Below are positions 30,631-60,582 of a stretch of 64,000 bases of DNA, piece after piece. The stretch lies in contig CAWDEM010000008.1 in the NCBI GenBank assembly GCA_963801355.1, positions 576,001 through 640,000 on the forward strand, given 5' to 3'. Both the position numbers and the translations under genes were made by a program. This stretch comes from Ignavibacteriota bacterium. Its GTDB lineage: Bacteria; Bacteroidota; Ignavibacteria; UBA10030; UBA6906. Numbering within the stretch: position 1 is the stretch's first letter; every line of letters begins with the position of its first letter. Below the pieces are notes generated by a model, which saw only the letters and a list, made by a program, of their open reading frames with translations, did no database searches and was not told the DNA's origin.

Positions 30631-32703
30631 ATGGGGAATTCAATAATGTCTCATAGATCTTCAATGCATAATATTTCTGCTGGTGGACTTCTTCATTCAT
30701 GGCGCCGCGTGTTCAGCACCTTTGCGGTTTCAACGATAGTACTCTTGGCTTTGAGTCCTCTCTCTTTTTGTTTTGCCGAACCGGCAGGCTCATCCAGCTC
30801 TGCAAAGAAATGGGTTGGAACCTGGAGTACCGCACCACAACTCGTTGAGCCAGGTAATAATCCCCCGGCACCTGGTTTGAGCAATAACACACTTCGACAG
30901 ATAGTGCGCGTTTCACTTGGTGGAGACAGTTTGCGCATGCGATTGTCAAATGAGTTTAGCGCAAGTCCTGTAACATTGCATGCAGTTCACGTTGCTCTCT
31001 CTAAAGGTGGTGGTACAATTGACACGAGTACTGACAAGGTCCTCTATTTTGATGGAAAGACGGAGGTCGCAATTGCGCCAAGGAGTGCGATTACATCGGA
31101 TCCTTTTGAGTTTGTTGTTCAACCACGGAGTGAGGTTGCAATCACGATTTATTTTGGCAACACCTCACCGGATGTAACCGGTCATCCTGGATCAAGAACC
31201 ACATCATACCTGCTTACAGGGGATCAAGTGTCCAAAGTGGATGTTTCCGGCGCTGTCACGACGGATCATTGGTACAACATCAATGCGATTGATGTGCTGG
31301 CACCGTCGACTGCAGCTTGTGTTGCAATTCTTGGCAACTCCATTACCGATGGGCGCGGTTCAACAACAAACATGCAGAATCGATGGACAGATGTGTTTTC
31401 AGAATCTCTTCTGAAGGACTCAAGTACTCGGCAAGTAGGTGTTCTTAATTTGGGCATTGGAGGGAATTGCGTGCTTTCCGGTGGTTTAGGCCCGACTGGA
31501 GTAAGCCGATATGACCGCGACATTCTCAATCAACACGGCGTACGTTGGGTTATCGTTTTTGAAGGGGTAAATGATATTGGTGGGGTCAACTCTGCTGCTT
31601 CTGCAACGATGACTGCCAATAATCTCATTGCTGCATACAGGCAGATGATTGCTAAAGCTCATACCAAAAACATCAGGATATACGGTGGAACCATTCTGCC
31701 CTTCAATGGTAATTCGTACTATAATCAATACAGTGAATTATGCCGAAATGCCGTTAATCAATGGATTCGCACCAAGGGCAATTATGATGGGTTCATTGAT
31801 TTCGATAAGGTGATGCGAAATCCACAGGATACTACGAGACTTGTGTCAACATATCAAAACGACGGTCTGCATCCTGATGCGGCAGGATACAAAACGATGG
31901 GTGAATCCATTGATCTCAATTTGTTTACCGGGGCAGATACGGTTTTCCAGCAAGTGACGGGAATTGAGTCGTTGTGGTTTGAAGCTGAACGTTTTCCGAC
32001 GGTTGGTAGTAGGTTTACTGTCGTAAGTGATGCGGCAGCTTCAAATGGAAAATACATAACTGTTCAGGCTGGTGTACAATCACTTTCCGCAGCTCCAACC
32101 GATAGTGCTGGGTTACTCACCATCCCTTTTACGGTGACCAAGGATTCAACCTACTACGTATTTGGCCGCGTAAACTGTCCAACGTATGATGACGATTCGT
32201 TTTGGGCAAAAGTGGACGATAGTACGTTTGTGAATTGTAATGGATTGAAAACAACCGGATGGGCGTGGATGAACTTGACCAGTTATCCACTGACAAAGGG
32301 TAGTCACACCCTCATTATTGGCTATCGCGAGGATGGAGCCTGTCTTGATAAATTATGCATTACCAATGATATGATTGCTCCAACAGGAATGGGCGAAGCT
32401 GATCCTACATTGGTTGGAGTAAATTCTATAGAGGCAATTGATGGCTATGAATTGGGACAGAATTATCCAAATCCGTTCAATCCTATCTCAACAATACGCT
32501 ACGACATACCTCATGCAGGTATTGTTTCGTTGAATGTTTACGATGTCATTGGCAGAGAGGTGGGGAATCTTGTGAATGAGGTGCAAGAACCGGGAACATA
32601 TTCTGTCTGCTTCGACGCCTCCACATTCTCGAGCGGAATGTATCTGTACAAGCTTGCATCAGGGAAGTTCAGTCAAACGAAAAAGATGATCGTGGTAAGA
32701 TAG
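30631..32703 (+). CDS. SGNH/GDSL esterase with CBM-like domain and T9SS C-terminal domain
   Basis: GNSITDG, GIGGN, EGVND, DGLHP; QNYPNPFNP CTD; visibly AT-richer than flanks; start uncertain. Confidence 0.88.
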   Translation: MGNSIMSHRSSMHNISAGGLLHSWRRVFSTFAVSTIVLLALSPLSFCFAEPAGSSSSAKKWVGTWSTAPQLVEPGNNPPAPGLSNNTLRQIVRVSLGGDSLRMRLSNEFSASPVTLHAVHVALSKGGGTIDTSTDKVLYFDGKTEVAIAPRSAITSDPFEFVVQPRSEVAITIYFGNTSPDVTGHPGSRTTSYLLTGDQVSKVDVSGAVTTDHWYNINAIDVLAPSTAACVAILGNSITDGRGSTTNMQNRWTDVFSESLLKDSSTRQVGVLNLGIGGNCVLSGGLGPTGVSRYDRDILNQHGVRWVIVFEGVNDIGGVNSAASATMTANNLIAAYRQMIAKAHTKNIRIYGGTILPFNGNSYYNQYSELCRNAVNQWIRTKGNYDGFIDFDKVMRNPQDTTRLVSTYQNDGLHPDAAGYKTMGESIDLNLFTGADTVFQQVTGIESLWFEAERFPTVGSRFTVVSDAAASNGKYITVQAGVQSLSAAPTDSAGLLTIPFTVTKDSTYYVFGRVNCPTYDDDSFWAKVDDSTFVNCNGLKTTGWAWMNLTSYPLTKGSHTLIIGYREDGACLDKLCITNDMIAPTGMGEADPTLVGVNSIEAIDGYELGQNYPNPFNPISTIRYDIPHAGIVSLNVYDVIGREVGNLVNEVQEPGTYSVCFDASTFSSGMYLYKLASGKFSQTKKMIVVR

Positions 32704-32790
32704 CCGAACGCTCTCGTCATTGTCAAATGCGTTCGCAGCTCCTGCAATCGGTGTTGAATCGGTGCGGACAACGAGCGACTGCGTAACTTC
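32702..32790. repeat. About 85-bp element-end repeat, copy 1
   Basis: GAACGCTCTCGTCATTGT...CTGCAATCG.TGTTGAATC.GGTGCGGACAACGAGCGACTGCGT matches the copies at 36.46, 36.82 and 38.20 kb. Confidence 0.85.
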
Positions 32791-32826
32791 ACAATGACGA
32801 GTTGTAGTCAGTAGAAGTAGCTGGCA

Positions 32827-33327
32827 CTACTGCTTGTCAGCCTTCGCTGTCACCGGTATGCCAGAATCGTGGCTGTAGATTACTTTCCATTGACCCGCGA
32901 GATTCTTGAAGACCATCGTATAGGCGTGCGGGTTGAATGTAATCTTGTCTCCGGACTTCAGGATGGTGTCATCCTTGCCATCCCAGGCGCAGATGACGAT
33001 GTCCTTAGCGATGAAGATGAAGTCCTGGCGAGTGGTGGTCCATTTGCAGGCGGCTACAGACTTGGCCCAATCAGGGACAAACTTCTTGAAGGTTTGATAG
33101 TCCCACCGTGAACCGTCAGCATTGACCATTCCCCAATCACGCGAATCGGCATAGTAGTCTAACCACCCCGCGTCTACCCTCGCAAGTTTTGATATGATGC
33201 TGTCGCATACCGCCTTGATTTCGCTCTTTGTTTGGTCCTTTTGTTGCTGGGTCAATTGATCGCTTGGTGGCGAAGTGCACCCAAGAAACGAGAGCAGCAG
33301 GGCTCCAACAAAGATTTTCGCTTTCAT
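32827..33327 (-). CDS. NTF2/SnoaL-like lipoprotein
   Basis: Lipobox FLGC; C-terminal YTMVFK...GQWKVIYSHDS. Confidence 0.75.
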   Translation of the reverse strand: MKAKIFVGALLLSFLGCTSPPSDQLTQQQKDQTKSEIKAVCDSIISKLARVDAGWLDYYADSRDWGMVNADGSRWDYQTFKKFVPDWAKSVAACKWTTTRQDFIFIAKDIVICAWDGKDDTILKSGDKITFNPHAYTMVFKNLAGQWKVIYSHDSGIPVTAKADKQ

Positions 33328-33399
33328 CGTGACCTCCGTTTGGTGGACCTGCCTAGATTACCAGCGCGCGACTCCGTTAACAACGTGTCGTCACGAGAA

Positions 33400-33786
33400 T
33401 TAGGTCGAGTCCTTCTTCTTTAAAGTCAAAACAGTGTCCACAACCAAGGCAAGCAGTACTCCGACTGCATTCGCAACAAGGTCCATGCTGTCGTATACGT
33501 TGGTCATGATTCCGAACCCATCGAAGACTTCGAACAGCTCTACCGCCGCAAGGGCAAGACCCGCCGCCCAGAGCCGCTTGTATCTAGACTGGACCGGAAC
33601 GAAAAGTGCATTGAAATATACTGCGAAAGATACCGCTACGTTGGCCGCGTAGGCATCAATAACCGCCTCAAACGGTCCCGAATAATGTCTCTTGAACACA
33701 AGCACAGCCACGCCAAGCATGACAAAAACAATGTTGCGCATGCTGGTCATGCCGTCAGAACTGAAGCCCTGTCCTTTCACCGGCAT
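33400..33786 (-). CDS. Small membrane protein (VanZ-like)
   Basis: Four hydrophobic segments, ELFE...YDSMDLVANAVG. Confidence 0.6.
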   Translation of the reverse strand: MPVKGQGFSSDGMTSMRNIVFVMLGVAVLVFKRHYSGPFEAVIDAYAANVAVSFAVYFNALFVPVQSRYKRLWAAGLALAAVELFEVFDGFGIMTNVYDSMDLVANAVGVLLALVVDTVLTLKKKDST

Positions 33787-59729: not shown

Positions 59730-60004
59730 AGAATTGGGACCTGTTCTGCGAGGATCCGGTCCCGAAGCAGTGGCTTCACGCTATCGTATTCGACAAGGTC
59801 CACATTCCTTGAAAGAGCATCTTCCAAGTCAAGCTTCAGAGCCACATAATCAAGCAGAGACGTTTTCGGGTCAAGCTCAACCAGAACATCCACGTCGCTC
59901 TCGAAGGATGCTTCGCCACGGGCAAATGAACCAAACAACCCGGCACGGGAAACGCGATGCCGTGAAAGAACCGATCGAATGATTTCAAGGGTATGGGGAT
60001 TCAT
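59726..60004 (-). CDS. MNT minimal nucleotidyltransferase antitoxin
   Basis: [25 protein letters not shown] overlap with HEPN. Confidence 0.9.
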   Translation of the reverse strand: MNPHTLEIIRSVLSRHRVSRAGLFGSFARGEASFESDVDVLVELDPKTSLLDYVALKLDLEDALSRNVDLVEYDSVKPLLRDRILAEQVPIL

Positions 60005-60415
60005 ATCAATACCATCATGCATCTCAAGTTACGGAGCACGCAGAACAAACACAACCGTCCGGTATTCTGTCACTCATGATATCTATCTATCCATGATGCG
60101 GTCTCCGGAAGAGGTCGGAGAACTCCGGACAGTCGAGTGGGCACCCGCCATGCTCGACATGAATACGATCCATGCGACAGAAGCGCAGGACCAAGCTCGC
60201 AAGTTCATTCATGGCAAAGAGCAACGACGGACGCCCGACAGAGTCGAACCTTCTAACCACTGATTTTTGGTCAAGCCAGCTCAGTCAACAGGCAATAAAA
60301 TGGGTCATTGGGAGGACTTTGAGCGTCGAATCATCGCGCCGAAATGAAAAATCACTACACTTTCAATACACTCGATTCAACTTCGGTTATCAGCCGGTAC
60401 ACCCAACAATAGTGA

Positions 60416-60435
60416 AGCCCGACGTTGGTCGGGCT
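60416..60435 (-). terminator. Hairpin downstream of tRNA-Lys
   Basis: AGCCCGAC-GTTG-GTCGGGCT; weak U-tract. Confidence 0.5.
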
Positions 60436-60509
60436 CGGCTGTAACTCATTGTCTTATCCACATTTGATTGACTATAGTCCATGGACAATCGACTATTGTC
60501 AATCGGTCG

Positions 60510-60582
60510 TGCACCCACCAGGACTCGAACCTGGAACCCACTGATTAAGAGTCAGTTGCTCTACCAATTGAGCCATGGGTGC
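60510..60582 (-). tRNA. tRNA-Lys(CTT)
   Basis: GCACCCA TGGCTCAATTGGTAGAGCA ACTGA CTCTTAA TCAGT GGGTT CCAGG TTCGAGT CCTGG TGGGTGC A folds as a cloverleaf; CCA not encoded. Confidence 0.97.

What the first reader, a model, noticed from the sequence alone, without database searches (positions are those of the whole stretch)
32700..60582. Tandem array of tRNA-Lys-anchored mini-islands acting as a cassette bank for T9SS-secreted proteins
Seen: three displaced 3' copies of tRNA-Lys (38067, 43579, 52206) in the same orientation as the intact gene, each followed by its own terminator. They divide the region into units of about 8.2, 8.7, 5.4 and 1.4 kb, and further end repeats continue to 32.7 kb. Only one unit has an integrase, and almost every unit carries a T9SS-CTD gene or remnant. 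Known: tyrosine integrases crossing over in anticodon loops regenerate the tRNA and allow tandem accretion. Inference: this is an accumulating array of mostly non-autonomous cassettes specialised for the secretome, from two element families with different end motifs.
Basis: partly seen in the sequence, partly recalled or inferred. Interest (0 to 1): 0.85.

Follow-up and report, generated by a model that had tools for sequence, protein, structure and literature searches.

The report
Stacked mobile islands behind tRNA-Lys
Behind one lysine tRNA gene of this Ignavibacteria genome lie six small DNA units in a row, separated by leftover copies of the tRNA's second half; they were likely stacked there one after another by site-specific integration, and most carry genes for proteins the cell exports, a known way of building genomic islands seen here in a group where it had not been described.

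Summary
The intact tRNA-Lys(CTT) gene (60509-60582, minus strand) is followed by three same-strand copies of its 3' part, each followed by a terminator hairpin. One correction: the copies at 38067 and 52206 are not short. They are the same 43-48 nt copy, split in the T-loop by an identical 91-nt double-hairpin insert.

The region 32.7-60.5 kb is a tandem array of six units from two families:
- Family A has a 20-nt arm motif 92 nt before each copy and no integrase.
- Family B has a 27-nt arm motif 39 nt before each copy and one intact tyrosine integrase.

Both arm families recur at the same spacing at tRNA-Lys in other genomes. Units are 86-94% identical to a congener whose core genes are 67-78% identical, and are missing from the closest relative. 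So the array is most likely serial integration and decay, as in CIME accretion or tycheposon islands.

The "T9SS cassette bank" reading is only partly supported:
- 10 of 17 units examined carry a T9SS-tail gene or remnant.
- 9% of equal-sized windows in this genome hold as many such genes.
- Other units carry lipoproteins, toxin-antitoxin pairs or sensor regulators.

Excision could not be tested.

The parts
60509..60582 (-). intact tRNA-Lys(CTT), head of the array (secG lies upstream at 60590-60922)
   Evidence: ARAGORN; Rfam RF00005 74.2 bits; SecG Pfam
52345..60508 (-). Unit 1 (family A, no integrase): hairpin and terminator 60415-60508, A motif 60352-60371, MNT 59726-60022, HepT 59391-59729, hybrid two-component regulator 54956-59140, M1 peptidase with T9SS CTD 52587-54671, A motif 52434-52453
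   Evidence: Pfam; motif; 86-91% identical to G004 unit
52206..52344 (-). displaced tRNA 3' copy J1 (tRNA positions 27-74), split by the 91-nt double hairpin at 52227-52317; terminator 52171-52205 follows
43624..52205 (-). Unit 2 (family A, no integrase): A motif 52113-52132, hybrid two-component regulator 47670-52016, GH130-like/beta-helix protein with CTD 44659-47538, HepT 44240-44593 (+), MNT 43897-44253 (+), A motif 43716-43735
   Evidence: Pfam; motif; 43579-44838 is 94% identical to G004
43579..43623 (-). displaced tRNA 3' copy J2, exact 45 nt (positions 30-74), uninterrupted; terminator 43549-43573 follows
38205..43578 (.). Unit 3 (family B, with integrase): near arm 43436-43578, conserved 104-aa ORF 43104-43418 (+), tyrosine integrase 40565-41662 (+), BNR-repeat protein with CTD 38285-39517 (-), B arm 38195-38292 with B motif 38242-38268
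   Evidence: Pfam; integrase 73-75% identical to two integrases at tRNA-Lys of G018; 79-83% nt identity to G018 units; B motif
38067..38200 (-). displaced tRNA 3' copy J3 (positions 32-74), split by the same 91-nt double hairpin at 38088-38178; hairpins 38028-38058 and 37980-38004 follow
36820..38066 (.). Unit 4, decayed family-B unit: remnant of the integrase upstream region 37639-37895, 196-aa membrane ORF 37009-37599 (-), CTD-gene remnant 36917-37046, B arm 36820-36908 cut off before the core
36456..36819 (-). Unit 5, stub: B arm 36456-36538 ending in TTCGACTCTCT, then unrelated sequence
32696..36455 (-). Unit 6: Sortilin/BNR protein with CTD 33834-35945, 128-aa membrane ORF 33400-33786, SnoaL-like lipoprotein 32827-33327, last B arm 32696-32794 with a degenerate core (CTATCTTA) and no tRNA 3' part
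   Evidence: Pfam; syntenic metagenome contig L074
30631..32703 (+). GDSL lipase with CTD, GC 46-49%, lying where the terminal tRNA copy would be expected; probably foreign, origin open
   Evidence: Pfam; composition; 78% to another locus in G004
29226..30326 (-). URO-D-like gene, the likely chromosomal far flank of the array
   Evidence: Pfam; in contig L074 a URO-D gene follows the last tRNA fragment

Best explanation
The 27.8 kb behind tRNA-Lys(CTT) is a tandem array of six small units bounded by displaced copies of the tRNA's 3' part, most likely built by repeated site-specific integration into the anticodon loop followed by decay.

Shown:
- The repeats, their terminators and the two arm families at fixed spacing.
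- One intact integrase.
- The same architectures at tRNA-Lys in other genera.
- Much higher identity of units than of core genes between species.

Inferred mechanism:
- Each incoming element carries tRNA positions about 30-74 plus its own terminator. The tRNA gene is therefore rebuilt, and the old 3' part is pushed away with the earlier element.
- Family B is the autonomous form: integrase, a 104-aa conserved protein and one cargo gene next to the far arm.
- Family A units, and units 4 to 6, have lost or never had an integrase. They would be passengers, movable only with help in trans or by homologous recombination across the shared tRNA copy, arms and CTD-coding gene ends.

Cargo is biased to exported proteins, often T9SS substrates, in two units paired with a sensor regulator.

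The 91-nt double hairpin likely entered two displaced copies after they were displaced.
For: Repeats: the tRNA's last 21 nt occur only 4 times in the genome. Identity starts at tRNA positions 27, 30 and 32, in the anticodon stem-loop.

Arms:
- The A motif occurs 4 of 4 times in the genome at the ends of units 1 and 2, with 0 expected.
- Of the 14 displaced copies found in 9 loci from 8 sources, 7 have the A motif 91-92 nt before the copy, 6 have the B motif 38-39 nt before it, and 1 has neither.

Integrase: Pfam Phage_integrase 4e-39. R196, K226, H290, R293, H316 and Y325 are invariant in an alignment with the two G018 integrases.

The same int(+)/cargo(-)/B-arm layout occurs at tRNA-Lys in G018 (another genus) and on two metagenome contigs.

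Transfer:
- Against G004, unit 1 is 86-91% identical and 43579-44838 is 94% identical, while core genes are 67-78% identical.
- Unit 3 is 79-83% identical to the G018 units, against core genes at 65-75%.
- The closest relative G002 (84% in secG-ribD) holds only a 172-nt arm piece of the 19.9 kb searched.
- The two regulators are only 36% identical, so units 1 and 2 are not a recent duplication.

Mosaic: the unit 2 CTD protein and the G004 unit 3 CTD protein share only their last 96 residues.

Precedent: site-specific accretion and decay to att-flanked, integrase-less elements (PMC5704250, passages); successive integrations at tRNAs that push older elements inward (bioRxiv 10.1101/2020.12.28.424599, passages).
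Against: - No excised circle, empty site or junction read was seen. The public runs found hold only short pieces of relatives.
- No integrase for family A was found in this genome. Its only candidate is a truncated 265-aa ORF in G004, with no close full-length relative in 68 family genomes.
- Units 4 to 6 lack a tRNA copy at their far ends, so their boundaries rest on the B arm alone.
- The near arm of family B also follows the last fragment in G018 and L074. Part of it may therefore be native flank rather than element.
- CTD enrichment inside this genome is weak: 9.0% of windows have 4 or more, 3.6% have 5 or more.
- Most genomes of the order have a single copy of the core. Among the 144 of 201 genomes with a match, the 9 listed with more than one copy are G000, G001, G017, G018, G070, G105, G110, G141 and G190.
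Confidence: 0.78

Rival explanations
1. The array is kept and reshuffled mainly by homologous recombination after uptake of foreign DNA, using the tRNA copies, arms, toxin-antitoxin modules and CTD-coding ends as shared handles. The att-like arms would be relics, and site-specific integration no longer acts.
For: - No family-A integrase in this genome.
- A homology breakpoint lies inside the CTD-coding end at about 44838.
- Long near-identical tracts are shared with G004.
- The two 137-nt split copies are 98.5% identical although their flanks are unrelated, which fits gene conversion.
Against: - The arm motifs keep exact spacing to the core in four genomes for A, and in two genomes plus two metagenome contigs for B. 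This points to selection on a recombinase site.
- The family-B integrase is intact and conserved.
Confidence: 0.14
2. An integron-like platform: the single integrase captures gene cassettes one by one at a fixed site and expresses them from a common promoter.
For: - One integrase and many units of one to a few genes in the same orientation.
- An earlier first-reader note of this scan proposed this reading.
Against: - The integrase sits in the third unit, not at the head.
- Unit borders are tRNA 3' copies with arms, not attC hairpins.
- Each copy is followed by a terminator, and two units bring their own regulator.
- Units 1 and 2 have arms unlike those of the integrase-bearing unit.
Confidence: 0.04
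3. Local tandem duplication and divergence of one ancestral segment, or an assembly artefact of repeats, with no mobile element involved.
For: Units 1 and 2 have the same gene plan: regulator, CTD protein and a HepT/MNT pair.
Against: - The two regulators are 36% identical.
- Units are closer to units of other species than core genes are.
- The flanks of the repeats are unique sequence inside a 3.0-Mb contig.
- Independent assemblies (G004, G017, G018, G070 and two metagenome contigs) show the same kind of array.
Confidence: 0.03

Closest known systems
Tandem accretion of integrative elements and CIMEs (cis-mobilizable elements), e.g. at the tRNA-Lys(CTT) gene of Streptococcus agalactiae (review PMC5704250, passages seen)
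   Same: - Successive site-specific integration at a tRNA gene.
- Decay to att-flanked units without an integrase.
- Tandems of elements with unrelated integrases and att arms at one tRNA.
- Even the same tRNA species.
   Different: - No conjugation, relaxase or oriT genes were seen here, so there is no evident ICE or IME parent.
- Units are very small, 0.4 to 8.6 kb.
- The host is an Ignavibacteria lineage.
- Cargo is exported proteins with sensor regulators.
- Cis-mobilisation is untested.
Tycheposons and the tRNA-seeded genomic islands of Prochlorococcus (bioRxiv 10.1101/2020.12.28.424599, passages seen)
   Same: - Cargo-carrying elements that integrate at tRNA genes.
- New arrivals push older ones inward.
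- Islands are littered with partial tRNAs and broken integrases.
- Cargo acts as plug-in niche functions.
   Different: - No replication module (primase or helicase) in any unit of this window.
- A different integrase lineage is presumed but was not compared.
- Cargo is secreted enzymes rather than nutrient-uptake operons.
- No evidence of activity here.
Integrons
   Same: An array of short gene units next to a tyrosine recombinase gene.
   Different: - No attI/attC architecture.
- The integrase is not at the head of the array.
- Units carry terminators and regulators.
- Borders are tRNA copies.
MITE-like small repeats (only for the 91-nt insert)
   Same: - Short, non-coding and multi-copy.
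- 10-nt terminal inverted repeat (TCCCGYCCCG).
- Precise insertion when compared with the uninterrupted copy at 43579.
   Different: - No target duplication, or at most 1 nt.
- The strong copies looked at lie before a T-loop-like TTCRANN, in most of them within a tRNA-like 3' fragment.
- No autonomous partner was identified.
- No Rfam family and no paper found.

Membership tests
tRNA-integrating tyrosine-recombinase element (anticodon-loop class) | Tyrosine recombinase with the catalytic R-K-H-R-H/W-Y set | tested here: met
   Pfam Phage_integrase 4e-39; PHROG integrase 6e-74; R196, K226, H290, R293, H316, Y325 invariant among three homologues. The assignment of these residues to the catalytic roles is from recall.
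tRNA-integrating tyrosine-recombinase element (anticodon-loop class) | Direct repeats made of the tRNA 3' part at both ends, with an intact tRNA at the near end | tested here: met
   Identity starts at tRNA positions 27-32.
tRNA-integrating tyrosine-recombinase element (anticodon-loop class) | Excision to a circle, leaving an empty site | not testable with these tools
   The runs found do not hold this organism at usable depth.
CIME / accretion tandem | Unit flanked by att sites but without integrase or transfer genes | tested here: met
   Units 1 and 2 have A motifs and tRNA copies at both ends and no integrase.
CIME / accretion tandem | Derived by decay from an ICE or IME, and mobilised in cis by a neighbour | tested here: inconclusive
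   The only trace of a family-A integrase is a truncated ORF in G004. No transfer genes were seen. Mobilisation cannot be tested here.
Tycheposon | Integrase together with a replication module (primase, helicase or polymerase) from the shared tycheposon gene pool | tested here: not met
   No such domain in any unit of the window. Integrase-plus-primase elements do use the same tRNA in G070 and G105.
Integron | IntI next to attI at the head of an array of attC-bounded promoterless cassettes | tested here: not met
   The integrase lies in the third unit. Borders are tRNA copies with terminators. Units carry regulators.
T9SS cargo (for the carried genes) | C-terminal sorting domain (Pfam PF18962) at the very end of the protein | tested here: met
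   Five proteins of 30.6-54.7 kb score above the Pfam cut-off at their C-terminus. The genome has 150 or more such matches. Actual secretion is untested.

The most novel reading that the evidence does not exclude
The tRNA-Lys(CTT) gene of this Ignavibacteria family is a shared docking site. Integrase-less, att-flanked 'sense-and-secrete' modules, each a sensor regulator plus a T9SS-secreted enzyme, are traded there between species. The conserved far end (CTD-coding tail plus arm) serves as a recombination handle that lets a new catalytic head be swapped onto an existing secretion tail. A T-loop-seeking 91-nt double-hairpin element marks, and perhaps locks, the older attachment sites.
Probability: 0.2. 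Interest if true: 0.75.

Novelty: new variant of a known kind. Interest (0 to 1): 0.52.

Why it matters
Ignavibacteria are common in sediments and wastewater, and almost nothing is known about how they exchange genes. My search for papers on genomic islands at tRNA genes in this group returned one unrelated paper.

This locus shows a concrete route: a single tRNA gene collects small units that are shared between species and genera. It also links that route to the secreted enzyme repertoire, T9SS substrates with their own sensors, that decides which polymers these bacteria can feed on.

It further gives two sets of conserved arm motifs and an intact integrase that can be tested directly. In general terms the mechanism is already known from streptococci and Prochlorococcus, so the gain is in breadth and cargo type rather than in principle.

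Tried and rejected
- Excision or empty-site reads. The look-up of sequencing runs gave only runs holding 5-12% of the sampled words. Laying four of them showed short pieces of relatives and no read of the one raw-read run. This is no test either way. The second read-laying run was not used.
- Family-A integrase. A search of 68 family genomes with the truncated G004 ORF found no close full-length relative (best 43% over 76 residues).
- Wider sampling of family-B integrases. Genome contigs gave only G018. Metagenome contigs gave 5 loci, of which 2 had usable flanks.
- Function of the conserved 104-aa ORF. No Pfam or PHROG hit. The AlphaFold model (pLDDT 79) is all-beta and has no PDB match at E of 0.001 or better. 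It does not look like a known excisionase.
- Rfam scan of 30-64 kb at E up to 1. Only the tRNA was found, plus weak chance hits. Nothing matched the 91-nt insert.
- CTD enrichment as proof of specialisation. Rejected as sole evidence, because 9.0% of 9279 windows of 27.8 kb hold 4 or more CTD ORFs.
Rejected: both are full copies with an insert, and one follows an A arm and the other a B arm.
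Full report
WHAT IS THERE

The window is G000:C8:576001-640000 of a 4.8-Mb, 8-contig genome. A relative's record title places the family in Ignavibacteriota. ARAGORN and Rfam find one tRNA gene, tRNA-Lys(CTT), at 60509-60582 on the minus strand, just after secG.

The last 21 nt of the tRNA occur exactly four times in the whole genome. 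All four are on the minus strand of this window: 60509, 52206, 43579 and 38067. So the three displaced copies are real and far beyond chance.

CORRECTION TO THE OBSERVATION

Reading the junctions shows that all three are long copies starting in the anticodon stem-loop.
- The copy at 43579-43623 is an exact 45 nt (tRNA positions 30-74).
- The copies ending at 52206 and 38067 start at tRNA positions 27 and 32. Each is interrupted between G53 and T54 of the T-loop by a 91-nt GC-rich insert (52227-52317 and 38088-38178).
- The two interrupted copies are 98.5% identical over 137 nt, although their flanks are unrelated.

TERMINATORS

The consensus scan finds no more terminator-like sites in 37800-52400 than in shuffles (13 against 13.1). 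But its strongest minus-strand sites begin 1, 6, and 9 and 63 nt after the three copies. One lies 73 nt after the intact tRNA.

GENES (Pfam)

- Unit 1 (60508 to 52345): MNT/HepT pair, a 1394-aa hybrid two-component regulator, and an M1 peptidase with a T9SS C-terminal domain (CTD).
- Unit 2 (52205 to 43624): a 1448-aa hybrid regulator, a 959-aa GH130-like/beta-helix CTD protein, and a second HepT/MNT pair on the plus strand.
- Unit 3 (43578 to 38205): a conserved 104-aa ORF, a 365-aa tyrosine integrase on the plus strand (so transcribed towards the tRNA), and a 410-aa BNR-repeat CTD protein.
- Unit 4 (38066 to 36820): a 196-aa membrane ORF, a remnant of the region upstream of the integrase (37639-37895, 75% to 40344-40589), and a CTD-gene remnant (36917-37046).
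- Unit 5: a 0.4-kb stub.
- Unit 6 (36455 to 32696): a Sortilin/BNR CTD protein, a 128-aa membrane ORF and a SnoaL-like protein with a lipobox (read by eye).

A tblastn search with the integrase finds no second copy in the window. The six other integrases of the genome are at most 36% identical and lie elsewhere, two of them beside tRNA-Asp and tRNA-Pro.

TWO ARM FAMILIES

Family A. A 20-nt motif made of two GTGTAGTGA-like repeats occurs four times in the genome, all at the ends of units 1 and 2, with 0 expected in shuffles.

Family B. A 27-nt motif inside an approximately 95-nt repeat lies before the copy at 38067 and again at 36855 and 36501. A degenerate copy lies at about 32740.

I then measured spacing at all 14 displaced copies that I had in hand. 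These came from this window, G004 and G001 (same genus), G018, G017 and G070 (other genera) and two metagenome contigs.
- The A motif lies 91-92 nt before the copy in 7.
- The B motif lies 38-39 nt before the copy in 6.
- One (G017) has neither.
- After the copy, the A motif lies at 73-76 or 127-137 nt.

Motifs kept at fixed distance from a crossover core across genera are what arm-type recombinase sites look like. That function is inferred, not shown.

THE INTEGRASE-BEARING FAMILY IS CONSERVED ELSEWHERE

- The unit 3 integrase is 73-75% identical to two integrases in G018. Each of these sits in a 3.5-4.2-kb unit at tRNA-Lys with the same layout: integrase on one strand, a cargo gene on the other next to the B arm.
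- Two metagenome contigs show the same, one with two units in tandem.
- The 104-aa ORF is 92% identical between the genera. It has no family or fold match.
- The catalytic-type residues of the integrase are invariant among the three homologues.

EVIDENCE FOR MOVEMENT BETWEEN LINEAGES

Core genes flanking the array are 67-78% identical in DNA to the congener G004, and 65-75% identical to G018. Against that background:
- The unit 1 regulator is 91% identical to G004 over 4.5 kb.
- The peptidase gene is 86% identical. In G004 it is broken.
- The far end of unit 2 (43579-44838) is 94% identical.
- Unit 3 is 79-83% identical to the G018 units, and its near arm 91.5%.

In G002, the closest relative (84% in secG-ribD, 93% complete, 470 contigs), only a 172-nt arm piece of the 19.9 kb searched is present. 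G001 and G003 hold only paralogue-level matches.

G004 has its own array of three family-A units with partly different cargo.

The two regulators of units 1 and 2 are 36% identical, so the units are not a recent local duplication.

MOSAIC STRUCTURE

The unit 2 CTD protein and the G004 unit 3 CTD protein share only their last 96 residues and are otherwise unrelated. The 94% DNA tract ends about 180 nt into the CTD-coding end. This is a single case, but it suggests exchange of the catalytic part between a fixed secretion tail and the arm.

THE FAR BORDER

In metagenome contig L074, a URO-D gene follows the last tRNA fragment, which is preceded by a B arm and a SnoaL-like gene. The window has the same order: URO-D-like 29226-30326, then the B arm at 32696-32794, then the SnoaL-like gene. 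Here, however, the terminal tRNA copy is missing and a low-GC GDSL-CTD gene lies in its place.

HOW COMMON

A 44-nt core pattern (up to 2 mismatches) is present in 144 of 201 genomes sampled from the order. More than one uninterrupted copy is listed for nine of them: G000, G001, G017, G018, G070, G105, G110, G141 and G190. Four further matches were not listed, and G004 was not in this sample.

Other element types use the same site:
- Integrase-plus-primase elements in G070 and G105.
- In G001, an element that leaves a 5' fragment (tRNA positions 1-42) next to secG and the whole tRNA 3.5 kb away.

IS IT A BANK OF T9SS CARGO?

In favour:
- 10 of 17 delimited units carry a CTD gene, a truncated one or a remnant. 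The breakdown is: this window 5 of 6, G004 3 of 3, G018 1 of 2, G017 1 of 1, G070 0 of 1, G001 0 of 1, L073 0 of 1, L074 0 of 2.
- Where present, it is co-oriented with the tRNA and near the far arm.

Against:
- The genome has 150 scored Pfam matches out of 204 candidates, and 209 by my own profile.
- 9.0% of 9279 windows of 27.8 kb hold 4 or more, and 3.6% hold 5 or more.
- Some units are homologous, so the 17 are not independent.
- The non-CTD units carry proteins with lipoboxes, signal peptides or membrane helices (by eye; no predictor was run), along with toxin-antitoxin pairs and regulators.

The fair statement is a bias towards exported proteins, often T9SS substrates. It is not a dedicated cassette system.

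THE 91-NT INSERT

It folds into two hairpins, and 11 of 38 pairs covary among five copies. A covariance model finds matches in 26 of 68 family genomes. Strong matches (over 70 bits) occur in G000 (4), G001, G003, G004, G010, G013 and G034. Weaker, regularly spaced matches may be unrelated repeats.

I looked at 15 strong copies, of which the two in this window are near-identical.
- In all of them the insert is followed by a T-loop-like TTCRANN (mostly TTCRANT).
- In most, the 5 nt on either side pair like a T stem.
- Several lie directly after an intact tRNA.

It follows an A arm in one place and a B arm in the other, and the copy at 43579 lacks it. So it most likely entered after displacement, like a target-specific MITE that survives only in dead tRNA fragments. 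Gene conversion between the two copies is an alternative. I had reached it independently.

COMPARISON WITH WHAT IS KNOWN

The mechanism matches site-specific accretion and decay to att-flanked, integrase-less elements (CIMEs), described among others at the tRNA-Lys(CTT) gene of Streptococcus agalactiae (PMC5704250, passages seen). It also matches the tRNA-seeded islands of Prochlorococcus built by tycheposons (bioRxiv 10.1101/2020.12.28.424599, passages seen).

It is not a tycheposon by gene content, since it has no replication module. It is not an integron by architecture.

Literature searches:
- Ignavibacteria with genomic island, integrase and tRNA returned one unrelated paper.
- T9SS with genomic island and integrase returned nothing on such arrays among the 12 listed of 167. 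I saw listings only.
- MITE with T-loop returned none.

The classification of tRNA integration sublocations that I use (anticodon loop against T-loop) is recalled, not read. No supplements were consulted.

VERDICT

This is a real tandem array, most likely made by serial integration at tRNA-Lys and decay. It is shared and reshuffled between species, with cargo biased to the exported proteome. It is a new variant of a known kind. Activity, the helper for the integrase-less units and any 'bank' function remain untested.

Noticed in passing
window 52227-52317 and 38088-38178 (minus strand); also G000:C8:1515720-1515820, G000:C4:522476-522573, L019:8981-9071: A 91-nt double-hairpin element with a 10-nt terminal inverted repeat, inserted exactly between G53 and T54 of tRNA-like T-loops. 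A covariance model finds it in 26 of 68 family genomes. Several copies lie directly after an intact tRNA and repeat its acceptor 3' strand. There is no Rfam family and no paper was found.
   Followed up: partly
L019 (G001:C260) 2597-2638 and 6092-6165; G004:C9 46142-46217 against secG at 65574: A second way of using the same tRNA. A 5' fragment (tRNA positions 1-42) stays next to secG, and the complete tRNA lies 3.5 kb (G001) or 19 kb (G004) further on. These elements would rebuild the gene at their far end.
   Followed up: no
window 43104-43418 (+): A 104-aa all-beta ORF next to the near arm of the integrase-bearing unit. It is 92% identical to two copies in another genus, more conserved than the integrase itself, and has no family or fold match.
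   Followed up: partly
window 60244-60268 and 52000-52024 (minus strand): Degenerate tRNA-like pieces (anticodon-stem to T-arm) about 200-265 nt inside the near ends of units 1 and 2. They are 88% alike and may be fossils of an older attachment site.
   Followed up: no
window 60467-60509; G000:C4:1031939-1031981; G000:C8:1569042-1569084: A 43-nt palindromic element follows tRNA-Lys. It recurs at 88-93% identity after tRNA-Tyr and at one other place. A related copy follows the displaced copy at 38067.
   Followed up: no
window 44301-44656: One metagenome contig (run X2) skips 354 nt here, removing the HepT gene. G004 has the same deletion in its first unit.
   Followed up: no
window 38583-39497: The BNR-repeat CTD gene is built of six to seven 123-nt tandem repeats (64-76% alike), that is 41-residue propeller blades. 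The Sortilin/BNR gene at 34291-35835 is similarly repetitive.
   Followed up: no
window 30631-32703: A GDSL lipase gene with CTD has GC of 46-49%, against 57% for the genome. It lies where the terminal tRNA copy is expected. Its homologue in G004 (78%) is at an unrelated locus.
   Followed up: partly
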